The notes beneath the pieces are model-generated. The model ran no database searches. It saw nothing but the letters and a program-made list of their open reading frames with translations, and was not told where the DNA came from. From a virus (Duplodnaviria; Heunggongvirae; Uroviricota; Caudoviricetes): 8,016 nt of DNA. A program made the position numbers and the translations under genes. The DNA is taken from IMG/VR virus record IMGVR_UViG_3300029181_000038, positions 1-8,016 of that record; one strand, given 5' to 3'. Within the stretch, counting starts at the first letter, position 1; each line of letters starts with the position of its first letter. Shown here in pieces: positions 1 through 8,016 of the stretch.

Positions 1-1093
1 TTGAGTCGATACCGATGTATGTCACGTTGTACTGTTCGGTCAGTTTTTTGATGGCGTCAGCCTGGGCGCGGAAGTCCATCCCGCGCCACTGGTGACGTTC
101 AAGAATGCGAAACTTACCGCCTGGCACGGCTGGCGGTGCCACCACCACGCATCCGGCGCTGTCGCCGTTCTGCGTACCTTTTGCCGGGTCATAACCGATC
201 CACACTTCGCGCCAGCCAAACGGGCGCAGGGCCAGTGCATGAAAGTCGCTCCAGACTTCCCAACTGTCCACCATGCACGCCTGCAGCTCGCTGAGCGGGA
301 ACACGGACGCGAGATCGTCCACAAACTCGCACATCAGCAGGTTCTGGTATTCGTCCGGGCTGTACTCCATGCGCAACTGATCGAGGTCGAAAAGGTTACA
401 TCCGCCGCGCACTGCATCTTCCACGGTGACTATCTGGCGGTATTGCCCGTCTGCGCACAGCAGGCCGGGGGCCAGATTGCTGTGGGACAGGTCGATGTCC
501 ACCTTATCGGCTTTGTTGCGCCCACGGTTGAACAGCGCACCAGACCAGAACGGATAAGCACTGTGTGTCAGGCTGGATGGCGTGGAAAAATAGGTTTGTC
601 GCCATTTTTTGTGAATAGCCATACCGGAAGCCACTTTGCGCAGCTCCTGGAATTTCGGTATCCAGAAATATTCATCCAGATACAGGTTGCCGTGATAACT
701 CTGGGCAGTGCGGGCATTGGTGCCGAGGAAGTAAAGCGTGGCCCCGTTAGGAAGCACCATCGGATCGCCTTTCAGCTCCACCTCGACTTCTTTGGCGAAG
801 TCGATGATGTATTGCTTAAAGACGTGAGCCTGTGCCTTACTGGCAGAAAGGAAAATCTGGTTACGTCCGGTAAGCAGGGCGTCAATCAGGGCTTCACGGG
901 CAAAGTAAAAGGTCGCGCCGATCTGGCGTGACTTCAGCAGATTACGGATGCGGTTGGTTTTTCCAGCTTCCCACCAGTGGCGCTGGTAGTTGAACATGGA
1001 GGAATGGAAGATTTCTTCCAGCTTCTCAATCTGTTCATCGGTGAAAACATTCTTTTCCGGCTGACGGCGCGGCCCTTTGTTGCGGTTCCTGCC
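1..1093 (-). pseudogene. P: Phage terminase large (ATPase) subunit, P2 gpP-like; 3' end runs off the left window edge; 5' end appears truncated (no in-frame start between the stop at 1094-1096 and the first ATG at 997-995)
   Basis: Minus-strand frame (codons at 2-4, 5-7, ...) is open across the whole region and translates to ...QPEKNVFTDEQIEKLEEIFHSSMFNYQRHWWEAGKTNRIRNLLKSRQIGATFYFAREALIDALLTGRNQIFLSASKAQAHVFKQYIIDFAKEVEVELKGDPMVLPNGATLYFLGTNARTAQSYHGNLYLDEYFWIP..., which reads as a terminase ATPase domain. It is not in the ORF track because it has no stop inside the window. The listed + ORF 92-931 is its antisense. Whether the gene is truly truncated or simply starts at Met997 is uncertain. 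Confidence 0.6.
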
Positions 1094-1565
1094 TTATCTC
1101 GCCTGGGCGTTCTCTGTGGATCGCTGGGACGAGAGCTGGACAGAAAGCGTCAAGCGCCAGGTGGTGAAGGATGCTTTTTATATTCATCAGCATAAAGGGA
1201 CCACCAGTGCCGTGCGGCGGGTGGTGGAGCCGTTCGGCTTTCTGATCCGCATTATTGAGTGGTGGCAGACCGGAGAGGCACCGGGCACGTTTCGCCTGGA
1301 TATCGGCGTGCAGGACCAGGGCATTACTGAAGATACCTATCTGGAACTTGAGCGACTGATAAGCGATGCCAAACCATGTAGCCGCCACATGATCGGCATG
1401 TCCATCAATCTGCAGACCAGCGGCCCGCATTGGGTGGGAGCCGCCAGCTATCTTGGCGAAGAAATCACGATCTATCCGTATATCAACGAAACGATTATTT
1501 CCGGTGGCACCGCGCATGAAGGCGGGGCGGTCCATGTTATTGACACAATGAGAGTGAATCCATGA
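1077..1565 (+). CDS. I: Baseplate assembly protein, P2 gpI-like, probably N-terminally truncated (frame opens at 1065; only a TTG start at 1077)
   Basis: Translation MLRFLPYLAWAFSVDRWDESWTESVKRQVVKDAFYIHQHKGTTSAVRRVVEPFGFLIRIIEWWQTGEAPGTFRLDIGV... matches the P2 tail protein I family as I remember it. Its stop overlaps the H start (ATGA at 1562-1565), the usual gene order upstream of tail fiber H. Confidence 0.65.
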   Translation: MLRFLPYLAWAFSVDRWDESWTESVKRQVVKDAFYIHQHKGTTSAVRRVVEPFGFLIRIIEWWQTGEAPGTFRLDIGVQDQGITEDTYLELERLISDAKPCSRHMIGMSINLQTSGPHWVGAASYLGEEITIYPYINETIISGGTAHEGGAVHVIDTMRVNP

Positions 1566-2983
1566 GCACAAAATTTTATACCCTGCTGACGGATATTGGC
1601 GCGGCGAAACTTGCCAGCGCCGCCGCGCTCGGTGTGCCGCTAAAAATTACCCATATGGCGGTGGGCGATGGCGGCGGAGCATTGCCGACGCCGGACGCAA
1701 AGCAGACGGCACTGGTAAATGAGAAACGCCGGGCTGCGCTGAATATGCTCTATATCGACCCGCAGAACAGCAGCCAGATTATTGCTGAACAGGTGATCCC
1801 TGAAAACGAGGGCGGTTGGTGGATACGTGAAGTGGGCCTGTTTGATGAGTCAGGGGCATTGATTGCCGTGGGGAACTGCCCGGAAAGCTATAAACCGCAA
1901 CTGGCTGAAGGCAGCGGGCGTACCCAGACCGTGCGCATGGTGCTGATTACCAGCAGCACGGACAATATCACCCTGAAAATCGACCCTGCCGTAGTGCTGG
2001 CAACCCGCAAGTATGTGGATGACAAGGTACTGGAGCTGAAGGTGTACGTGGATGATCAGATGGCAAAACATCTTGCCGCACCGGACCCGCATTCACAGTA
2101 TGCACAGAAAGAAAGTCCGACGTTTACCGGGACACCAAAAGCGCCAACGCCAGCGGCAGGGAATAACACCACGCAGGTTGCGACCACCGCGTTTGTTCAG
2201 GCGGCACTGACGGCCCTTATTAATGGTGCTCCAGCCACGCTGGACACGCTAAAAGAAATAGCCGCAGCCATTAACAATGATCCGAATTTCAGTACCACCA
2301 TTAACAATGCGCTGGCACTGAAAGCGCCGTTGTCGAGTCCGGCACTCACCGGAACGCCAACAGCACCTACTGCGGCACAGTCGGTCAACAATACACAGAT
2401 TGCCACTACGGCTTTTGTGAAATCGGCGATTGCGGCAATGGTAGGTTCTGCACCTGCGGCACTGGATACACTGAACGAACTGGCGGCGGCGCTGGGGAAT
2501 GACCCAAACTTTGCCACGACAATGCTTAATGCACTGGCAGGTAAACAACCGCTGGACAATACGCTGACTAATTTGAGTGGAAAGGATGTAGCTGGTCTTC
2601 TCACATACCTTGGTTTGGGAGAAGCGGCAAAACGGGATGTGGGGACAGGGGAAAATCAGATACCGGATATCTCCAACGTTCCATTTACAAAAAACAATCC
2701 TCTTAATTTTGAGTTACCAGGAGGATTAATTCTGAAAGCCGGGTATGGAAAGCTGACAACGCAGTCCAGTATCTGGATTAATTTCCCTGCAGCATTCCCT
2801 AATGACTGTATTGCCGGAGGAGCTTTAAGTGCGGAAGAGAACACAAATGACTATGTATTTGCTCAAACTACATCACGCAAAGCAGGAGGATTAACTCTGG
2901 CGTTTTATCGTGGGGGCATTAGTCAGCCACCAACAGCCAATTCCAGAGAACTTTCTTTCTCGTGGTTTGCGATAGGATATTAG
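1562..2983 (+). CDS. H: Tail fiber protein, P2 gpH-like; constant N-terminal part (to ~2610) fused to variable C-terminal cassette Hv (2611-2983) in the current orientation
   Basis: 473-aa ORF; N-terminus MSTKFYTLLTDIGAAKLASAAALGVPLKITHMAVGDGGG... is the conserved P2-family tail-fiber N-terminal domain; internal tandem fibre repeats; translationally coupled to upstream I (ATGA) and downstream tfa. Confidence 0.92.
   Translation: MSTKFYTLLTDIGAAKLASAAALGVPLKITHMAVGDGGGALPTPDAKQTALVNEKRRAALNMLYIDPQNSSQIIAEQVIPENEGGWWIREVGLFDESGALIAVGNCPESYKPQLAEGSGRTQTVRMVLITSSTDNITLKIDPAVVLATRKYVDDKVLELKVYVDDQMAKHLAAPDPHSQYAQKESPTFTGTPKAPTPAAGNNTTQVATTAFVQAALTALINGAPATLDTLKEIAAAINNDPNFSTTINNALALKAPLSSPALTGTPTAPTAAQSVNNTQIATTAFVKSAIAAMVGSAPAALDTLNELAAALGNDPNFATTMLNALAGKQPLDNTLTNLSGKDVAGLLTYLGLGEAAKRDVGTGENQIPDISNVPFTKNNPLNFELPGGLILKAGYGKLTTQSSIWINFPAAFPNDCIAGGALSAEENTNDYVFAQTTSRKAGGLTLAFYRGGISQPPTANSRELSFSWFAIGY
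2598..2623. repeat. Left crossover site of invertible segment (gix/cix/hix-like 12-2-12 site) located inside gene H
   Basis: ttctcacatacc-tt-ggtttgggagaa. Its reverse complement ttctcccaaaccaaggtatgtgagaa is identical to the right site at 4437-4462 over the first 14 nt; the exact inverted repeat is 15 nt (2610-2624 vs 4436-4450). Half-sites fit the TTCTC..AAACC pattern of Gin-family recombination sites. Confidence 0.8.
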
Positions 2984-2984
2984 A

Positions 2985-3425
2985 ATGAGAATTTTTTTCA
3001 GTGCATCAACATTGTGGTTTTATGATGAAACTCGCAAAGAAGAATATCACAACGGTATTGGATGGCCAGATGATGCTATCGAAATATCAGATGATGAATG
3101 GAATAAATATACGCAAATTCCTCCTGATGGTTTTATATTAGGTGCCACCTCTCAGGGAAGACCTGCATGGATATTAATATCTCCGCCAGATAAAAAAATG
3201 GTTATGGATATTGCTGAAACTAAAAAACAGCAGTTAATTAGCCAGGCCAATGAATACATGAACAGTAAACAATGGCCCGGTAAAGCCGCTATTGGTCGTC
3301 TGAAAGGCGAGGAACTGGCGCAATATAATTTGTGGCTGGATTACCTGGACGCACTGGAGCTGGTTGATACCTCCAGTGCTCCAGATATTGAATGGCCTAC
3401 GTCTCCGGCAGTTCAGGCCAGATGA
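2985..3425 (+). CDS. G: Tail fiber assembly chaperone (Tfa, P2 gpG / Mu U-like), partner of the currently expressed Hv cassette
   Basis: 146-aa ORF starting 1 nt after the H stop (tag-a-atg) with AGGA 7 nt upstream; C-terminal motif LDYLDALELVDTSSAPDIEWPTSP is typical of Tfa-family chaperones. Confidence 0.85.
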   Translation: MRIFFSASTLWFYDETRKEEYHNGIGWPDDAIEISDDEWNKYTQIPPDGFILGATSQGRPAWILISPPDKKMVMDIAETKKQQLISQANEYMNSKQWPGKAAIGRLKGEELAQYNLWLDYLDALELVDTSSAPDIEWPTSPAVQAR

Positions 3426-3999
3426 CATCCGGCGCTGTGCTGGTATCTGTTGCCGTCACCGCGTCAATGTAATCCAGCACAGCGTTAAGCCGGGTTGTTT
3501 CTGCCTGCGTCAGTTTACGTCCGGCCTGCAATTTCAACTGAATCAGACTGACGGAAGCCATTGCTGCATCAATTAGTGGCTGGCGCAGTGCTTCTGCCGC
3601 GTCTACTGCGGCATTATGCTGTGCCTCAGTATCTGTCACCCATTTCTCACCATCCCATTCATCGTATGGCGTTAACGGAGCGATAGTGGTCGTATTTTCA
3701 TGATAATCACCCGGACCTGTGATTTCTTTCGATTCTCCTGTTTCGGTGCTATAAACGATTTCACCGCGATGGTCTGGCACATATTCCCATGAGTTTAAAT
3801 CCATCGAACGGCAGATAGCATAACCCGCCTTATGTGTGCCAGGGGCATCTAAACAGGAATATGCAGGGATACCGACACCAATGGCAAGATATTCATTTGA
3901 AGTGGAAATATATTCCCGAGTTTCACCATCATAGTTATAGACGGTAATATTCCCCGCCTTCGTGGCAATAAGCTCGCTATTTAATACGGCGTTATCCAT
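3397..3999 (-). CDS. Alternative tail fiber assembly chaperone (tfa'), partner of the silent Hv' cassette
   Basis: 200-aa minus-strand ORF; C-terminal motif LDYIDAVTATDTSTAPDVIWPELPE parallels that of tfa; its ATG overlaps the Hv' stop (TAATG on the minus strand at 4001-3997); 3' end overlaps tfa convergently. Confidence 0.85.
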   Translation of the reverse strand: MDNAVLNSELIATKAGNITVYNYDGETREYISTSNEYLAIGVGIPAYSCLDAPGTHKAGYAICRSMDLNSWEYVPDHRGEIVYSTETGESKEITGPGDYHENTTTIAPLTPYDEWDGEKWVTDTEAQHNAAVDAAEALRQPLIDAAMASVSLIQLKLQAGRKLTQAETTRLNAVLDYIDAVTATDTSTAPDVIWPELPET

Positions 4000-4449
4000 T
4001 ATGCAGCCCTCACGATATAGTTAAATGCAATATTTCGTGGACGGGTTTCACTCCCGCCGGGGAGCTGAAAAGCGTTGATAATCCCACCGCTTGCCTGACT
4101 TATTCCATCCGTGTACAACCCGCCACCGGCACTGTCGCTGAGTGCAAATGTTTTTGATGGTGAACTGTTTGAAGCTGGCCCCCAGTATTTTAATGCGAGC
4201 TTTCTGACTTCATCACTCTGAATACTCAATAAAGCACGCCCTGTATCAATGCCGCGCCCATCATCCCAGCCACGAATAAACTCACCACGTAAATCAGGCA
4301 ATTTATTTGTCGGATAAGCCTTTGCCAGTTCCGGGTATTCTTCAGCAGAAAAAGCTGCACCGTTGCATTTCAGCCAGCCTGTCGGCGGAGTGGCTGAAGG
4401 CCATGGAACAGGGACACCAACAGGTAATGCCGAACCTTCTCCCAAACCA
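3999..4449 (-). CDS. Silent alternative tail-fiber C-terminal cassette (Hv'); no start or promoter of its own; would be fused in frame to the H constant region after inversion
   Basis: Minus-strand frame reads ...VGLGEGSALPVGVPVPWPSATPPTGWLKCNGAAFSAEEYPELAKAYPTNKLPDLRGEFIRGWDDGRGIDTGRALLSIQSDEV...NIAFNYIVRAA, which looks like a side-tail-fibre receptor-binding C-terminus. The GLGE codons sit on the crossover repeat in the same codon phase as LGLGE of H (2609-2623). The ORF-track start MMPVARYL at 4490 lies on or beyond the crossover site and is probably not used. Confidence 0.8.
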
Positions 4450-4462
4450 ACGTTTATGAAAA
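4437..4462. repeat. Right crossover site of invertible segment (gix/cix/hix-like), ~55 bp upstream of the invertase gene
   Basis: ttctcccaaacc-aa-cgtttatgaaaa; inverted copy of the site at 2598-2623; imperfectly palindromic around a central AA dinucleotide. Confidence 0.8.
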
Positions 4463-4517
4463 TGCAGAGATAACGGGCAACTGGCATCATCTCCGGTTTT
4501 TATTCAGGGGGATGCTC

Positions 4518-5084
4518 ATGCTTATTGGCTATGTACGCGTGTCAACAAATGACCAGAACACGGAATTGCAGCGTAACGCGCTGGAGTGCGCAGGATGCGA
4601 GCGGATTTTTGAGGATAAAATCAGCGGCACGAAGTCCGACCGACCGGGACTGAAAAAACTGCTCAGAACACTATCGGCAGGAGACACGCTGGTTGTCTGG
4701 AAGCTGGACAGGTTGGGGCGCAGTATGCGGCATCTTGTTACGCTGATAGAAGAGTTGCGCCAGCGTGGCGTGAATTTCCGAAGCCTGACTGACAGTATTG
4801 ATACCAGTACCCCAATGGGCCGTTTCTTTTTTCATGTCATGGGTGCCCTGGCTGAAATGGAACGCGAACTGATAGTTGAACGTACCAGGGCAGGGCTGGC
4901 TGCAGCTCGTGTTAAAGGCAGAGTAGGTGGACGCCGTCCTAAGTTGACCAGCGAACAGTGGGCACAGATTGGGCGTTTACTCGAGGCCGGAGAATCAAGA
5001 CAGCGTATTGCACTGATTTTTGATGTAGGCGTTTCTACCATTTATCGAAAATTTCCGGCAAATAAGAGCAATGAATCTCCCTGA
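4518..5084 (+). CDS. Site-specific DNA invertase, serine recombinase of the Gin/Pin/Cin/Hin family
   Basis: MLIGYVRVSTNDQNTELQRNALECAGCERIFEDKISGTKSDRPGLKKLLRTLSAGDTLVVWKLDRLGRSMRHLV...GRFFFHVMGALAEMERELIVERT...GGRRPKLT... with a C-terminal HTH (VGVSTIYRKF); catalytic Ser in the YVRVSTNDQ motif. Start chosen at ATG 4518 (AGGGGG at 4505-4510, 7-nt spacing) rather than the in-frame ATG at 4512, which sits too close to the SD. Confidence 0.93.
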   Translation: MLIGYVRVSTNDQNTELQRNALECAGCERIFEDKISGTKSDRPGLKKLLRTLSAGDTLVVWKLDRLGRSMRHLVTLIEELRQRGVNFRSLTDSIDTSTPMGRFFFHVMGALAEMERELIVERTRAGLAAARVKGRVGGRRPKLTSEQWAQIGRLLEAGESRQRIALIFDVGVSTIYRKFPANKSNESP

Positions 5085-5132
5085 CTCAGCTTTATTTTGA
5101 TTATCCCTGAAAGCAGACAAATACCGTCATTT

Positions 5133-5150
5133 TGTGTGAATAACGGTACA
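5133..5150 (+). promoter_or_regulatory. P2-type late promoter activator element (TGT-N12-ACA, Ogr/Delta-family binding site) upstream of FI
   Basis: tgt-gtgaataacggt-aca in the 142-bp FI upstream region, centred ~85 bp before the FI ATG; consistent with a -55-centred Ogr site and a ~30-nt leader. No strong -35 is visible, as expected for activator-dependent late promoters. Exact -10 not assigned. Confidence 0.5.
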
Positions 5151-5226
5151 ACTGCGCTTAGCTGTTTGTCAGGCACAATCACTTCAACATAGGGCGAAGC
5201 CTAATCCAATCAGGAGGTTCGCCACT

Positions 5227-6399
5227 ATGGCTCAGGATTACCACCACGGGGTGCGCGTTGTTGAAGTCAACGAAGGCACTCGATCCATTACTACGGTGAG
5301 CACCGCCATCGTGGGCATGGTCTGCACGGGCGATGATGCCGATGCAAAAATGTTCCCTCTTAATAAACCCGTGCTGATCACTGATGTGCTTACTGCCAGC
5401 GGTAAAGCGGGTGAGTCCGGTACGCTGGCCCGTTCGCTGGATGCCATCGCTGACCAGGCAAAACCCGTGACCGTTGTTGTGCGTGTGCCGCAGGGTGAAA
5501 CGGAAGACGAAACCACGACCAATATCATCGGCGCAGTGACTGCTGAAGGTAAAAAAACAGGTATGAAAGCCCTGTTATCTGCCCAGTCACAGCTCGGCGT
5601 TAAACCGCGCATTCTCGGCGTGCCAGGCCACGACACCAAGGCGGTAGCTACTGAGTTGCTGAGCATGGCGCAAAGCCTGCGTGGATTTGCTTACCTGTCA
5701 GCATATGGCTGCAAGACGGTACAGGAGGCGATCACTTACCGTGAAAACTTTAGCCAGCGCGAAGGGATGCTGATCTGGCCTGACTTTACTGGCTGGGACA
5801 CTGTGCTGAATGCCGAAGCAACGGCATATGCCACCGCCCGTGCGCTTGGTCTGCGCGCCAAAATTGACGAGCAAACCGGATGGCACAAAAGCCTGTCCAA
5901 CGTGGGCGTGAACGGTGTCACCGGAATTTCTGCAGATGTGTTCTGGGATCTGCAGGACCCGGCAACCGATGCAGGTCTGCTGAACCAGAACGACGTCACC
6001 ACGCTTGTGCGCAAGGATGGTTTTCGCTTCTGGGGTTCCCGCTGTCTGAGCGATGATCCGCTCTTTGCCTTCGAAAACTACACCCGCACGGCGCAGGTGC
6101 TGATGGACACGATGGCAGAAGCGCACATGTGGGCGGTGGACAAACCGCTGAACCAGTCGCTGGCCCGCGACATTATCGAAGGTATCCGCGCCAAAATGCG
6201 CAGCCTGGTCAGTCAGGGCTATCTCATTGGTGGTGATTGCTGGCTGGACGAGTCGGTGAACGATAAAGACACGCTGAAAGCCGGGAAGCTCACCATCGAC
6301 TACGACTACACGCCAGTGCCGCCACTTGAAAATCTGATGCTGCGCCAGCGCATCACCGATCAGTATCTGGTGAATTTTGCCAGCCAGGTCAGCGCGTAA
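5227..6399 (+). CDS. FI: Contractile tail sheath protein, P2 gpFI-like
   Basis: 390-aa ORF; [40 protein letters not shown]...[19 protein letters not shown]...[24 protein letters not shown] closely matches the P2 sheath protein as I remember it; RBS CAGGAGG at 5211-5217. Confidence 0.93.
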
Positions 6400-6408
6400 G
6401 GGGACAAC

Positions 6409-6924
6409 ATGGCTTTACCACGCAAATTAAAACATCTGAACCTGTTTAACGACGGGAACAACTGGCAGGGGATCGTAGAGTCGCTGACGCTGCCGAAATT
6501 CACCCGCAAATATGAGAAGTATCGCGGCGGCGGAATGCCAGGTGCAGTGGATGTGGATCTGGGGCTTGATGACAGTGCGCTGGACACAGAATTTTCCATT
6601 GGTGGTACTGAACTGCTGCTGTTTAAGCAGATGGGCAAAGCCACGGTGGATGGCATCCAGTTGCGCTTTACCGGCTCTATCCAGCGTGACGATACCGGGG
6701 AAGTGCAGGCCGTGGAGCTTGTGGTGCGTGGACGTCACAAAGAAGTTGACTCTGGTGAGTGGAAGACGGGCGAAAGCAACACCACCAAAGTGACCAGTAC
6801 CAACAGCTACGCGAAGCTGACCATCAATGGTGAGGTGCTCTATGAAGTGGACCTTATCAACATGGTGGAAATTGTGGACGGTGTGGACCTGATGGAAGCG
6901 CACCGCAACGCACTCGGCCTCTGA
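6409..6924 (+). CDS. FII: Tail tube protein, P2 gpFII-like
   Basis: 171-aa ORF 9 nt after FI with RBS AAGGGGA; MALPRKLKHLNLFNDGNNWQGIVESLTLPKFTRKYEKYRGGGMPGAVDVDLGLDD... fits the P2 tail tube family; conserved FI-FII order. Confidence 0.9.
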   Translation: MALPRKLKHLNLFNDGNNWQGIVESLTLPKFTRKYEKYRGGGMPGAVDVDLGLDDSALDTEFSIGGTELLLFKQMGKATVDGIQLRFTGSIQRDDTGEVQAVELVVRGRHKEVDSGEWKTGESNTTKVTSTNSYAKLTINGEVLYEVDLINMVEIVDGVDLMEAHRNALGL

Positions 6925-6935
6925 TGTATCTGAAC

Positions 6936-6953
6936 GGCGCGGAATGCCGCGCC
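6936..6953 (+). other. GC-rich hairpin (7-bp stem GGCGCGG/CCGCGCC, 4-nt loop) between FII and E; no following U-tract
   Basis: ggcgcgg-aatg-ccgcgcc seen directly, 12 nt after the FII stop. Not a canonical intrinsic terminator; could be an mRNA stability or processing element that affects the FII:E expression ratio. Confidence 0.3.
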
Positions 6954-6978
6954 AGAACCCAATTTACAGGACAGCAAA

Positions 6979-7281
6979 ATGAGCGATAAGCAGACTGAAA
7001 AGACCATTCAACTGGATACCCCCATCAAGCGCGGTAAAACAGAAATCACCGAAATTGTGCTGCGTAAACCGCAGTCTGGTGCGCTGCGCGGCACACGCCT
7101 GCAGGCCATTATGGATATGGATGTGAACGCGATGATGACCGTGATCCCCCGCATCTCCAGTCCGGCACTGACTGCACAGGAAATCGCAGAGATGGACCCG
7201 GCAGATCTCACAGCCATGTCGGTTGAGGTTGTCACTTTTTTGTTGAAGAAGTCGGTGCTTGCCGGTTTACCGACAGCCTGA
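6979..7281 (+). CDS. E: Tail assembly chaperone, P2 gpE-like (zero-frame product)
   Basis: 100-aa ORF MSDKQTEKTIQLDTPIKRGKTEITEIVLRKPQSG...; position between the tube gene and the tape-measure gene, as for P2 E and lambda G. Confidence 0.85.
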   Translation: MSDKQTEKTIQLDTPIKRGKTEITEIVLRKPQSGALRGTRLQAIMDMDVNAMMTVIPRISSPALTAQEIAEMDPADLTAMSVEVVTFLLKKSVLAGLPTA

Positions 7282-7415
7282 CGGTTGACGATCTGGTGGC
7301 AGATATCGCCACCATTTTTCACTGGCCGCCATCCGTTACTGACGTTATGCCGCTGACCGAAGTGCTGGAATGGCGGTATAAAGCGATTCAGAGATGCGGG
7401 GCCAACGATGAGTGA
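6979..7415 (+). CDS. E+E': Frameshift fusion product E+E' (tail assembly chaperone long form), made by -1 slippage at 7236-7242
   Basis: -1 frame after the slip site encodes VEEVGACRFTDSLTVDDLVADIATIFHWPPSVTDVMPLTEVLEWRYKAIQRCGANDE with no stop until 7413-7415, which overlaps the T start (ATG 7408). This matches the known P2 E/E' arrangement. Confidence 0.7.
7236..7242 (+). promoter_or_regulatory. Programmed -1 ribosomal frameshift slippery heptamer T-TTT-TTG within E
   Basis: Zero-frame codons TTT (7237-7239) and TTG (7240-7242); the -1 frame is open from 7242 to a TGA at 7413-7415. Confidence 0.75.
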
Positions 7416-8016
7416 TAACAACCTGCGCCTGCAGGTCATTCTTAATGCGGTTGACAAACTCACCCGCCCATTCCGTGCTGCACAGGCCAGTTCGAAAGAG
7501 CTGGCTGGCGCAATCAGAAACTCCCGTGACGCATTAAAGCAACTCAATCAGGTGGGTAACAGCCTGGAAAAATTTCGCAAGCTGCAGGCTGATAACAAGA
7601 AGTTAGGCGACAGGCTGAACTATGCCAGACAGAAGGCTAATTTGCTTAGCTCTGAGCTGGAGGCGATGGAGCAACCATCACAAAGGCATCTTGTGGCTTT
7701 AGGTCGGCAAACGCTGGCAGTCCAACGCCTGGAAGAACAACAAAAATATTTGCAGAAGCAAACGGCGCTTGTGCGTGCTGAACTGTACCGGGCGGGAATT
7801 TCTGCGAAAGATGATGCGGGAGCAACTGCCCGTTTAGCCCGTGAAACATCACGTTATAACCAGGAACTTTCGAAACAGGAGGCGCGGCTGAAGCGACTGG
7901 GGGAAGCTCAGCGCAGGATGAATGCAGCGCGTGCCAGTTATGCCCGTTCGCTGGAGGTGCGTGATCGTATTGCAGGTGCCGGAGCCACCACCACGGCTGC
8001 AGGGCTGGCAATGGGC
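7408..8016 (+). CDS. T: Tail tape measure protein, P2 gpT-like, N-terminal 203 codons (continues beyond the window)
   Basis: Open frame from ATG 7408 to the window end: MSDNNLRLQVILNAVDKLTRPFRAAQASSKELAGAIRNSRDALKQLNQVGNSLEKFRKLQADNKKLGDRLNYARQKANLLSSELEAMEQ..., a coiled-coil-rich N-terminus typical of tape-measure proteins. Missing from the ORF track because it has no stop in the window; the listed minus ORFs 7008-7547 and 7646-8011 are its antisense. Confidence 0.85.
   Translation, partial: MSDNNLRLQVILNAVDKLTRPFRAAQASSKELAGAIRNSRDALKQLNQVGNSLEKFRKLQADNKKLGDRLNYARQKANLLSSELEAMEQPSQRHLVALGRQTLAVQRLEEQQKYLQKQTALVRAELYRAGISAKDDAGATARLARETSRYNQELSKQEARLKRLGEAQRRMNAARASYARSLEVRDRIAGAGATTTAAGLAMG

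What the first reader, a model, noticed from the sequence alone, without database searches (positions are those of the whole stretch)
2598..5084. Invertase-driven tail-fibre host-range switch embedded in a P2-type tail operon
The C-terminal third of tail fiber H and its chaperone tfa sit inside a ~1.84 kb segment flanked by inverted 26-bp crossover sites. A second, promoterless receptor-binding cassette (Hv') with its own chaperone (tfa') is encoded on the opposite strand inside the same segment, and a Gin/Pin/Cin/Hin-family serine invertase lies just outside the right border. This is the Mu G / P1 C / e14 P architecture, so the mechanism is established. Canonical P2 has a fixed H-G pair, so this is a P2-family variant carrying a biphasic switch. 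Inversion would swap adsorption specificity, and the locus may be in different orientations in sibling strains or within one culture.
Basis: partly seen in the sequence, partly recalled or inferred. Interest (0 to 1): 0.75.

Follow-up and report, generated by a model that had tools for sequence, protein, structure and literature searches.

The report
Known invertible tail-fibre switch, crippled prophage
This is a real but already well-known DNA-flipping switch that lets a P2-like E. coli prophage alternate between two tail-fibre tips, and the copy in this window sits in a prophage that has lost about 8.3 kb of head, lysis and baseplate genes, so here it is probably a relic.

Summary
Two 26-bp crossover sites (2598-2623 and 4437-4462) lie in inverted orientation. 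They bracket Hv + tfa on the + strand and tfa' + Hv' on the - strand. A 188-aa serine invertase (4518-5084) lies just outside; it is 85% identical to e14 PinE and 74% to Mu Gin.

Inversion is demonstrated by comparison. Intact E. coli prophages with the identical invertase carry the same segment in either orientation, with breakpoints inside the sites. Two assemblies differ by 0 SNPs in 6.4 kb and only by orientation. Flipping the window's segment in silico gives a 499-aa fibre identical to the one annotated in E. coli 14EC007.

The system is not new. The nearest relative is the e14 P segment, whose right site is identical 27/27. Inversion in P2-like prophages has been shown experimentally in EPEC E2348/69, inferred by genome comparison for Fels-2, and such invertases are annotated in deposited phage genomes.

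Interest is low.

The parts
1..1087 (-). 5'-truncated terminase ATPase (gpP-like) fragment. The reading frame is open across the whole stretch and runs off the left end of the window.
   Evidence: 97% DNA identity to terminase genes of Salmonella phage SEN8 and Klebsiella P2-like phages. The translation aligns to P2 gpP residues 115-475 at 68% identity.
1086..1087 (.). Deletion junction with 2-bp TT microhomology. 8,307 bp are missing relative to the intact prophage of E. coli 14EC007.
   Evidence: blastn of the window against L026. The same junction is present in metagenome contig L002, which is 100% identical to the window. It is absent from 5,426 complete E. coli genomes, from the GTDB species representatives and from JGI metagenomes.
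1088..1565 (+). 3' part of baseplate gene I; the first ~42 codons are deleted.
   Evidence: Pfam Tail_P2_I matched from profile position 38 onward. Intact relatives encode 201 aa. 100% DNA identity to 14EC007 from position 1086.
1562..2983 (+). Tail fibre gene H in its present state (473 aa). The constant part is 1562 to ~2609; the variable tip Hv is ~2625-2983 (Gp53-like_C).
   Evidence: Pfam Phage_tail_fib 2.9e-65 and Gp53-like_C 2.2e-11. 50% identical to P2 gpH over the first 360 aa.
2598..2623 (+). Left 26-bp crossover site TTCTCACATACC-TT-GGTTTGGGAGAA, with the core dinucleotide at 2610-2611. It lies inside H at the codons for ...TYLGLGE...
   Evidence: The breakpoints of naturally inverted relatives fall within 2610-2624.
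2985..3425 (+). tfa, the tail-fibre assembly chaperone paired with Hv (146 aa).
   Evidence: Pfam Caudo_TAP 4.8e-31. 45% identical to e14 TfaP.
3397..3999 (-). tfa', the chaperone paired with Hv' (200 aa). Its 3' end overlaps that of tfa by 29 nt.
   Evidence: Pfam Caudo_TAP 2.5e-29. 89% identical to e14 TfaE. e14 shows the same 29-nt overlap.
3999..4490 (-). Alternative fibre tip Hv' (Collar domain). It exists as an ORF whose start codons (4490 and 4487) and 18-aa leader lie outside the invertible segment.
   Evidence: Pfam Collar 1.1e-15. 62% identical to e14 StfE, with a conserved leader. Similar to the T4 gp37 tip and gp12. Fuses in frame to the constant part of H after in-silico inversion.
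4437..4462 (-). Right 26-bp crossover site; on the - strand it reads TTTTCATAAACG-TT-GGTTTGGGAGAA, with the core at 4449-4450.
   Evidence: Identical 27/27 to the right pix site of e14.
4518..5084 (+). Serine DNA invertase (188 aa; Pin/Gin/Cin/Hin subfamily).
   Evidence: Pfam Resolvase 6.5e-53 and HTH_7 5.8e-16. 85% identical to PinE and 74% to Gin. Gin structure 3UJ3 matched at E=2.4e-92. Ser9 and the Fis-contact residues are present. The identical protein is indexed in 423 blocks of the assembly collection.
4540..4602 (.). Candidate Fis-dependent recombinational enhancer. Two Fis-like 15-mers, 4540-4554 and 4588-4602, have centres 48 bp apart; the proximal centre is ~98 bp from the right core.
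   Evidence: Motif scan and alignment with gin and pinE, which have matches at the same codon positions. The geometry matches the hin enhancer: 47 bp between centres and ~100 bp from hixL (PMC3798978). Binding was not tested.
5133..5150 (+). TGT-N12-ACA dyad, probably the Ogr/Delta activator site of the pF late promoter for the sheath operon.
   Evidence: the pattern alone is not rarer than chance. It lies 85 nt before the sheath ATG, and P2's annotated pF activator site lies 83 nt before FI.
5227..8016 (+). Context: sheath FI (5227-6399), tube FII (6409-6924), chaperone E (6979-7281) and the start of the tape-measure gene.
   Evidence: Pfam. Gene calls in relatives.

Best explanation
The locus is a Pin/Gin-type site-specific inversion switch of the e14 P-segment kind, carried in the G-FI accessory hotspot of a P2-like (Peduoviridae) E. 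coli prophage.

**How it works.** The 188-aa serine invertase binds the two 26-bp sites. It is probably activated by Fis bound to an enhancer in the first ~85 bp of its own gene (inferred). It makes 2-bp staggered cuts at the TT cores (2610-2611 and 4449-4450) and rotates the 1.84-kb segment. This exchanges which tip-plus-chaperone pair is fused in frame to the constant 350-aa N-terminal part of fibre H:
- state A, as in the window: Gp53-like tip + 146-aa chaperone, H = 473 aa;
- state B: Collar-type tip + 200-aa chaperone, H = 499 aa.

**What is shown and what is inferred.**
- Shown by comparative data: the segment really flips in this lineage, on a time scale shorter than point-mutation accumulation.
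- Inferred from family knowledge: the two states give virions different receptor specificity.
- Specific to this window: an 8.3-kb illegitimate deletion fuses the terminase gene to gene I. It removes O, N, M, L, X, the lysis genes, R, S, V, W, J and the pV promoter. This copy therefore cannot build heads or baseplates, and H-tfa has lost its late promoter.

The invertase, both sites and all four cassette ORFs are still intact, because the deletion is very recent. The switch can probably still flip, as in the defective prophage e14, but without any effect on host range.
For: - Anatomy and domains.
- The site pair is far beyond chance.
- The sites match e14 pix (right site 27/27) and resemble Mu gix.
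- Invertase 85% identical to PinE and 74% to Gin, Gin structure E=2.4e-92, catalytic Ser9 and the invertase-specific Fis-contact residues present: with residues taken from PMC3798978.
- Fis-like motif pair with 48-bp spacing, ~98 bp from the site, conserved in gin and pinE; hin geometry.
- Both orientations occur in intact prophages carrying the identical invertase.
- Breakpoints lie inside the sites, with flanks 100%/99.97% and segment 99.9% identical.
- L010 versus L022 show 0 SNPs in 6.4 kb but opposite orientation.
- In-silico inversion gives an H identical 499/499 to that of 14EC007.
- In 5,426 complete E. coli genomes, the Collar tip is fused to the constant part of H in 410 and lies next to an invertase in 877.
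- Deletion. P2 operon and promoter map.
- Experimental precedent for inversion in e14 and in P2-like prophages of EPEC: PMC4272514.
Against: - No reads or cultures were available, so flipping in this very copy is not shown.
- The deletion junction is seen only in one metagenome contig (reported in 2 samples) and nowhere else. A chimeric artefact cannot be fully excluded, although a 2-bp overlap cannot create a de Bruijn-graph join.
- No sigma-70-like promoter was detected for the invertase, so its expression is assumed.
- The Fis motif is degenerate, and the proximal site starts with T rather than G.
- Receptor specificities of the two tips are unknown. The Gp53-like tip has no solved homologue by sequence.
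Confidence: 0.85

Rival explanations
1. It is a fully working host-range switch in a viable P2-like phage. On this reading the terminase-I junction is an assembly or library artefact, and the real genome has the complete V-W-J-I-H operon.
For: Every intact relative has the complete operon. The junction was found in no complete genome, species-representative genome or JGI metagenome. The terminase part is only 96.2% identical to 14EC007 whereas the rest is 99.97-100%, as might be expected if two different prophages had been joined.
Against: The two sides share only 2 bp at the junction, so a k-mer graph assembler cannot join them without reads that span it. The contig is reported from 2 samples at ~9x coverage. 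Mosaicism between head and tail modules is normal in P2-like phages (one search shows the same patchy identity).
Confidence: 0.1
2. It is a domesticated defence function. In the crippled prophage the switch is retained because one state produces a short orphan tip protein that blocks adsorption of other phages. That protein would be the leader MMPVARYLCIFINVGLGE fused to the Gp53-like tip, 137 aa, read from the - strand next to the invertase. This is what was reported for e14 StfE2.
For: The orphan ORF has its own start codon and a GGAG just upstream, outside the segment. Its leader is conserved with e14 StfE. After inversion it would carry a Gp53-like domain like StfE2's, and it is annotated as a 137-aa protein in 14EC007. 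PMC12529663 reports that StfE2 blocks T2 adsorption.
Against: The deletion is so recent (0-1 SNPs from intact prophages) that retention implies no selection. No promoter was found for the orphan ORF. The window is in the state where the Gp53-like tip is on the full-length fibre, not on the orphan. The Gp53-like tip shows only weak, local similarity to e14 StfP (31% over 67 aa, E 0.008). The published effect rests largely on overproduction.
Confidence: 0.08
3. It is a static relic. The inverted repeats merely reflect homology between two fibre cassettes, and the orientation differences among genomes arose by rare RecA-dependent recombination or by cassette replacement rather than by the invertase.
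For: None specific. The repeats are short and sit in coding sequence conserved among fibre genes.
Against: Identical or near-identical prophages (0-1 SNP) occur in both orientations, interleaved on the SNP matrix, which implies repeated recent flips. The breakpoints are confined to the 15 bp that include the core. A 13-15-bp identity is far too short for efficient RecA recombination (established knowledge). The invertase and sites are near-identical to e14's, for which inversion within clonal cultures is shown (PMC4272514, PMC12529663).
Confidence: 0.02

Closest known systems
e14 P segment / PinE of E. coli K-12 (stfP-tfaP / tfaE-stfE-pinE)
   Same: Same gene order and strands. The right crossover site is identical 27/27, and the inner half-site plus TT core are identical on the left. 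The invertase is 85% identical, TfaE/tfa' 89% and StfE/Hv' 62%. Both have the same 29-nt overlap of the convergent chaperone genes and a similar segment length (1797 versus 1839 bp). Both sit in a defective prophage. The window's orientation corresponds to the K-12 reference orientation (PMC12529663).
   Different: The constant fibre part is a 350-aa P2 gpH-type N-terminus (Phage_tail_fib), not the short StfP. The Gp53-like tip and its chaperone are diverged (tfa 45% identical to TfaP; the tip shows only weak, local similarity to StfP). The flanks are Peduoviridae sheath and tube genes rather than mcrA.
Invertible tail-fibre modules of P2-like prophages and phages: EPEC E2348/69 P2-like prophages, Salmonella Fels-2 (fin), Escherichia phage 500465-1, Cartapus, Klebsiella phage KP12
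   Same: The invertase lies between the fibre-chaperone genes and the sheath gene FI, with two alternative C-termini for H. Coexistence of both orientations in clonal cultures was shown by sequencing and PCR for EPEC (PMC4272514). Fels-2 inversion between LT2 and LT7 was attributed to fin (PMC7953296). 500465-1 has the same layout with an annotated DNA invertase, and its flanks are 95-97% identical to the window.
   Different: This copy has lost V, W, J and the head and lysis genes. Some EPEC loci have three sites and four variants, whereas here there are only two sites. I did not retrieve the EPEC or Fels-2 sequences, so their identity to the window is untested.
Phage Mu G segment / Gin (and P1 C segment / Cin)
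   Same: Sc-Sv-U / U'-Sv' logic with the invertase outside the right border. Gin is 74% identical. The gix site has a related dyad (TTATCCAAAACC-TC-GGTTTACAGGAA). The spacing between right site and invertase start is conserved, and Fis-like motifs occur at the same codon positions.
   Different: The core dinucleotide is TC in Mu and TT here. The G segment is 3 kb, and the fibre and chaperone proteins are essentially unrelated in sequence. P1 was not examined here.
Canonical phage P2 tail region (V-W-J-I-H-G, fun(Z), FI-FII-E-T-U-D)
   Same: Gene order I-H-chaperone ... FI-FII-E-T. Proteins are 44-68% identical (I 58%, H N-terminus 50%, FI 68%, FII 53%, E 44%). The late-promoter dyad lies at the same distance before FI.
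   Different: P2 has one fixed H-G pair, with fun(Z) in the hotspot where this element has the invertible module. The element belongs to a different genus: its closest classified phage is a Wadgaonvirus.

Membership tests
Gin/Hin/Cin/Pin DNA invertases (serine recombinase subfamily) | N-terminal resolvase-type catalytic domain with the serine nucleophile in the YxRVSTxxQ motif | tested here: met
   Pfam Resolvase 6.5e-53. The N-terminus MLIGYVRVSTNDQ has Ser9, Arg7 and Tyr5, aligned with Gin and PinE.
Gin/Hin/Cin/Pin DNA invertases (serine recombinase subfamily) | C-terminal HTH DNA-binding domain; total length about 185-195 aa | tested here: met
   HTH_7 5.8e-16 at residues 140-183 of the 190-aa ORF translated from ATG 4512 (138-181 in the 188-aa numbering used here); total 188 aa.
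Gin/Hin/Cin/Pin DNA invertases (serine recombinase subfamily) | Closer to known invertases than to resolvases | tested here: met
   85% identical to PinE and 74% to Gin. PDB Gin 3UJ3 scores 311 bits versus 119 bits for gamma-delta resolvase.
Gin/Hin/Cin/Pin DNA invertases (serine recombinase subfamily) | Invertase-specific residues that contact Fis and the enhancer (Hin Q151/R154/L155; basic residues 47/48/51) | tested here: met
   Q150, R153, L154 and K46, K47, R50 in Gin-type numbering. The residue list is from PMC3798978.
Gin/Hin/Cin/Pin DNA invertases (serine recombinase subfamily) | Two 26-bp imperfect-dyad crossover sites in inverted orientation with identical 2-bp cores | tested here: met
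   The core is TT in both sites when aligned; the right site is identical to the e14 right pix site.
Gin/Hin/Cin/Pin DNA invertases (serine recombinase subfamily) | Fis-dependent recombinational enhancer: two Fis sites about 48 bp apart in the 5' part of the invertase gene, about 100 bp from one site | tested here: inconclusive
   Fis-like 15-mers are centred at 4547 and 4595, 48 bp apart and 98 bp from the core, and are conserved in gin and pinE. This matches the hin geometry. The motif is degenerate and lies in conserved coding sequence, and binding was not tested.
Gin/Hin/Cin/Pin DNA invertases (serine recombinase subfamily) | The segment actually inverts | tested here: met
   Shown for the lineage, not for this copy. 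Both orientations occur among prophages with 0-1 SNP differences, with breakpoints inside the sites.
Invertible tail-fibre segments (Mu G / P1 C / e14 P type) | A constant fibre N-terminus outside the segment, and two alternative C-terminal cassettes inside it, each followed by its own chaperone, in opposite orientation | tested here: met
   The tips belong to different domain families (Gp53-like_C versus Collar), and both chaperones are Caudo_TAP.
Invertible tail-fibre segments (Mu G / P1 C / e14 P type) | Both orientations give an in-frame full-length fibre | tested here: met
   State A gives 473 aa. In-silico state B gives 499 aa, identical to the annotated 14EC007 protein.
Invertible tail-fibre segments (Mu G / P1 C / e14 P type) | The two states confer different adsorption specificity | not testable with these tools
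   Inferred from family knowledge. The Collar tip resembles the T4 gp37 and gp12 receptor-binding regions.
P2-like (Peduoviridae) tail gene cluster | Complete V-W-J-I-H-G operon driven by the pV late promoter | tested here: not met
   V, W, J, the first ~42 codons of I and the pV region are deleted. The sequence upstream of I' is antisense terminase. Intact relatives meet this feature.
P2-like (Peduoviridae) tail gene cluster | FI-FII-E-(E')-T operon with a late-promoter dyad upstream | tested here: met
   Pfam sheath, tube and TAC_7 domains. Dyad at 5133-5150, positioned as in P2. 44-68% identity to P2 proteins.

The most novel reading that the evidence does not exclude
In a prophage that can no longer make particles, the switch may have been co-opted as a recombinase-activated anti-phage device. 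Flipping would place the Gp53-like tip behind the 18-aa leader of the orphan ORF next to the invertase. The resulting 137-aa protein could then block adsorption of other phages, as claimed for e14 StfE2. That would extend the StfE2-type mechanism from e14 to the very widespread P2-like invertible modules.
Probability: 0.08. Interest if true: 0.5.

Novelty: already known. Interest (0 to 1): 0.15.

Why it matters
The finding matters little beyond correct annotation.

- It is a textbook serine-invertase fibre switch. The identical invertase protein is on record in hundreds of assemblies (index-listed in 423 blocks), and related junction sequences occur in hundreds of complete E. coli genomes.
- It is already demonstrated experimentally in e14 and in P2-like prophages of EPEC, and inferred by genome comparison for Fels-2.
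- The comparative data give a clean natural record of repeated flipping between otherwise identical prophages. That can serve as a positive control for inversion-calling pipelines.
- It is also a reminder that assemblies freeze one state of a phase-variable locus.
- The deletion shows how an intact-looking 'host-range switch' can sit in a prophage that can no longer use it. Such modules may act as reservoirs of fibre cassettes for superinfecting phages, or possibly as raw material for host defence.

Tried and rejected
- **CFT073 as a within-strain test.** I fetched four independent CFT073 assemblies hoping to see orientation differences within one strain. Its related prophage has no invertase: it carries a fixed fibre-chaperone pair plus an acyltransferase in that hotspot. 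The test was uninformative, apart from showing that the module is hotspot cargo.
- **Searching for the deletion junction elsewhere.** Nothing was found in 5,426 complete E. coli genomes, in the GTDB species representatives or in JGI metagenomes.
- **Searching complete E. coli genomes for the window's own Hc-Hv junction.** No genome covered 80% or more of the query. This Gp53-like tip in the expressed state is found only in draft or GenBank assemblies.
- **Promoter scan.** No sigma-70-like promoter was found for the invertase, for the orphan ORF or upstream of I'-H. The total number of hits was below the shuffle expectation.
- **A first orientation-calling script** had an off-by-one error and its output was discarded. 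It was replaced by a blast-based version.
- **A first terminase-versus-P2 comparison** used the wrong reading frame and was redone.
- **The Gp53-like tip has no solved homologue** by sequence.
- **Papers not held.** The e14 analysis (PMC331406) and the Fin paper (PMC1347348) are not in the library. Statements about them rest on citing papers and on my own knowledge.
- **A third crossover site (shufflon)** was considered and rejected. The half-site occurs only twice, even allowing one mismatch.

Full report

Yes. The repeat finder reports arms 2598-2624 and 4436-4462 (27 nt, 85% complementary) as the longest inverted pair in the window. The shared 13-mer GGTTTGGGAGAAG occurs exactly twice, on opposite strands. 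Only 0.02 matches are expected from dinucleotide-preserving shuffles, and none of 200 shuffles gave two.

Read as 26-bp sites, the two are:
- left: TTCTCACATACC-TT-GGTTTGGGAGAA (2598-2623);
- right, reverse-complemented: TTTTCATAAACG-TT-GGTTTGGGAGAA (4437-4462).

The inner half-sites and the central dinucleotide are identical. The outer half-sites match 8/12. The cores are 1839 bp apart.

- H, 1562-2983, has a P2-type Phage_tail_fib N-terminus and a Gp53-like_C tip.
- tfa, 2985-3425, is Caudo_TAP.
- tfa', 3397-3999 on the - strand, is Caudo_TAP.
- Hv', 3999-4487/4490 on the - strand, has a Collar domain.
- A Resolvase + HTH_7 protein lies at 4518-5084.
- Sheath, tube and chaperone E follow.

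The left site lies in H at ...TYLGLGE|AAK..., and the right site lies in the - strand ORF at ...INVGLGE|GSA... Exchange at the core therefore keeps the reading frame.

**2. What is it?**

*The invertase.* It is 85% identical to PinE of e14 and 74% to Gin of Mu. Its best solved-structure matches are the two Gin entries, 3UJ3 at E=2.4e-92, far ahead of gamma-delta resolvase. It has Ser9 in MLIGYVRVSTNDQ. It also has the residues that McLean et al. (PMC3798978) describe as uniquely conserved in Fis-dependent invertases. These are Hin Q151/R154/L155 and basic residues 47/48/51, which correspond here to Q150/R153/L154 and K46/K47/R50.

*The sites and cassettes.* The right crossover site is identical 27/27 to the right pix site of e14. 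The left site shares the inner half and the TT core with the left pix site. Mu gix is a more distant version with a TC core. tfa' is 89% identical to TfaE, Hv' 62% to StfE and tfa 45% to TfaP. The convergent chaperone genes overlap by 29 nt exactly as in e14. The nearest known system is therefore specifically the e14 P segment.

*The candidate enhancer.* In the 5' end of the invertase gene there are two matches to the degenerate Fis consensus, centred at gene nucleotides 30 and 78 (window 4547 and 4595). gin and pinE have matches at the same positions. The centres are 48 bp apart, and the proximal one is about 98 bp from the right core. The hin enhancer has two Fis sites with 47 bp between their centres, about 100 bp from hixL. 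This fits a Fis-dependent enhancer. However, the motif is loose and sits in conserved coding sequence, so I rate that feature inconclusive.

**3. Does it really flip?**

Comparative evidence says yes for this lineage.

- Exact-protein look-ups with the invertase and with tfa' returned intact P2-like prophages in E. coli assemblies that encode the identical 188-aa invertase. Some are in the window's state (H 473 aa + 146-aa chaperone). Others are in the opposite state (H 499 aa with Collar tip + 200-aa chaperone, with a 146-aa chaperone and a 137-aa Gp53-like ORF on the other strand).
- blastn shows that in the opposite-state loci the left flank (1086-2624) and right flank (4436-8016) are collinear with the window. 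The stretch 2610-4462 matches on the other strand at 99.5-99.9% identity. The alignments overlap only within the repeats.
- The outer half-sites differ at position 2609 and stay in place. The exchange point is therefore confined to 2610-2624, which contains the core.
- Inverting the window in silico at the cores gives a 499-aa H that is identical, 499/499, to the H annotated in E. coli 14EC007.
- On a SNP matrix over 4,574 nt of flanks and the 1,837-nt segment, orientation is interleaved among near-identical prophages. L010 (state B) and L022 (state A) have 0/0 differences. L009 (B) and L015 (A) have 1/0. The window (A) and L009 (B) have 1/1. Flipping is therefore faster than point mutation, as expected for an active invertase and not for rare RecA events on 13-15 bp of identity.
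- Among 5,426 complete E. coli genomes, the constant part of H fused to the Collar tip is found in 410. The Collar tip abutting an invertase is found in 877, a count that includes e14-type elements.

**4.

Phage matches to the window start only at position 1086. Positions 1-1087 match the terminase ATPase gene of the same group of phages at 97%, on the same strand sense as in intact genomes but 8-10 kb away.

Against the intact prophage of E. coli 14EC007, exactly 8,307 bp are missing. The missing stretch runs from about nucleotide 340 of the terminase gene to about nucleotide 126 of gene I, with a 2-bp TT microhomology at the junction. The terminase fragment corresponds to P2 gpP residues 115-475.

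The deleted interval holds the capsid scaffold, the major capsid protein, the small terminase, head completion, X, holin, lysozyme, LysA/B/C, R, S, V, W and J. By analogy with the annotated P2 record, it also holds the pO/pP and pV activator sites. In P2, pV drives V-W-J-I-H-G. No sigma-70-like promoter is predicted upstream of I'-H.

The window is 100% identical to metagenome contig L002, which continues leftward into portal, a PIN-domain gene and a SIR2-HerA pair. The junction was not found anywhere else. A 2-bp overlap cannot produce a graph-assembly chimera and the contig is reported from two samples, so I take the deletion as real. It is also very recent: the remaining tail genes are 99.97-100% identical to intact prophages.

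The consequence is that this copy cannot make heads or baseplates, and H has lost its late promoter. The switch may still turn, as in the defective e14 where coexisting orientations were shown in clonal K-12 cultures (PMC4272514). It cannot alter the host range of a particle.

**5. Comparison with what is known.**

Canonical P2 has one H-G pair and fun(Z) between G and FI. The window's proteins are only 44-68% identical to P2's. Its closest classified phage, Escherichia phage 500465-1, is a Wadgaonvirus with the same layout and an annotated DNA invertase.

Invertible fibre modules in P2-like elements are established:
- Goldberg et al. 2014 found and PCR-verified phase variation by inversion in two P2-like prophages of EPEC E2348/69. 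One is a simple two-state version and the other a three-site, four-state version with ~1.8 and ~2.2 kb inversions.
- Inversion of the Fels-2 fibre gene between LT2 and LT7 is attributed to the pin homologue fin (PMC7953296).
- A 2024 preprint notes that a DNA invertase, with inversion of the neighbouring genes, is often present in this P2 hotspot.
- The CFT073 relative carries an acyltransferase there instead, which confirms that the module is exchangeable hotspot cargo.

The finding is therefore already known, and the copy here is a degraded one.

**6. The most novel reading not excluded.**

The so-called silent cassette is a complete ORF. Its start codon, a GGAG just upstream, and its 18-aa leader (MMPVARYLCIFINVGLGE) lie outside the segment next to the invertase. 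The leader is conserved with e14 StfE.

Kirigo et al. 2025 (PMC12529663) report that after P-segment inversion in e14 the corresponding chimeric ORF, StfE2, blocks adsorption of T2 and other phages. StfE2 consists of the StfE leader plus a gp53-like tip. State B of this element would make an analogous 137-aa protein, which is annotated in 14EC007.

There is no evidence of expression here. The deletion is too recent for retention to mean selection, and the published effect relies largely on overproduction. I give this reading about 8%.

**7. Verdict.**

- Observation: confirmed.
- Interpretation: supported in mechanism and architecture, and the predicted orientation polymorphism was verified.
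- Novelty: none.
- Context: this copy lies in a freshly truncated, non-viable prophage.
- Interest: 0.15.

Noticed in passing
window 1-1087 and junction 1086/1087: The left 1.1 kb is a 5'-truncated terminase ATPase gene on the - strand, fused with 2-bp TT microhomology to a 5'-truncated baseplate gene I. The 8,307-bp deletion relative to intact prophages removes the head, lysis, tail-completion and baseplate genes and the pV promoter.
   Followed up: yes
window 1-1087 versus 1086-8016: Mosaic identity. The terminase fragment is only 96.2% identical to E. coli 14EC007 (97-97.5% to Salmonella SEN8 and Klebsiella P2-like phages), whereas the tail part is 99.97-100% identical to 14EC007.
   Followed up: partly
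L002 512-3411 (same contig as the window, upstream of it): A SIR2-HerA anti-phage defence pair (PADLOC HerA 5.9e-267, SIR2 6.1e-211) and a PIN_12 gene sit between DinI and the portal gene. This is the P2 old/tin-type accessory hotspot.
   Followed up: partly
window 3999-4490 (-): The 'silent' Collar cassette is a full ORF with start codons at 4490 and 4487, a GGAG just upstream, and an 18-aa leader encoded outside the invertible segment. The leader is conserved with e14 StfE. The e14 equivalent after inversion (StfE2) has been reported to block phage adsorption.
   Followed up: partly
window 3397-3425: The convergent chaperone genes tfa and tfa' overlap by 29 nt at their 3' ends, and e14 tfaP/tfaE have exactly the same overlap. 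The nearby 18-nt inverted repeat (3335-3352 / 3461-3478) reflects the homologous ...LDY(L/I)DA... C-termini of the two chaperones.
   Followed up: partly
window 2600-3400: G+C falls to 40-43% across Hv and tfa, against about 55% in the flanking tail genes and 45-51% in the tfa'/Hv' half. This suggests that the Gp53-like cassette was acquired from a lower-GC source.
   Followed up: no
window 5133-5150: A perfect TGT-N12-ACA dyad lies 85 nt upstream of the sheath start codon, at the same distance as P2's annotated pF activator-binding site before FI. The sheath operon seems to keep its late promoter although the fibre operon lost pV.
   Followed up: partly
window 4479-4498: A weak hairpin followed by a T-run lies between the right crossover site and the invertase start. 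The block TGGCAT(C/G)AT...CTTTT is conserved in e14 and Mu. It could insulate the invertase from read-through out of the segment, or it could simply be the reverse complement of the orphan ORF's start region.
   Followed up: no
window 2126-2141 / 2348-2363 (H codons ~190-340): The H shaft contains a tandem duplication of about 74 aa (...TQVATTAFV...APATLDTLKEIAAAINNDPNF... and ...TQIATTAFV...APAALDTLNELAAALGNDPNF...), seen as a direct repeat with 222-nt spacing.
   Followed up: no
L027-L030 (E. coli CFT073, four assemblies): The closely related CFT073 prophage (gene I 99.6% identical) has no invertase or second cassette. It carries a fixed fibre-chaperone pair followed by an acyltransferase on the opposite strand in the same G-FI hotspot.
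   Followed up: yes
L004, L013 versus the window: Prophages encoding the identical 188-aa invertase carry different fibre-tip cassettes. The segment matches the window only partly, at 92-93% identity, so cassettes are exchanged independently of the invertase.
   Followed up: no
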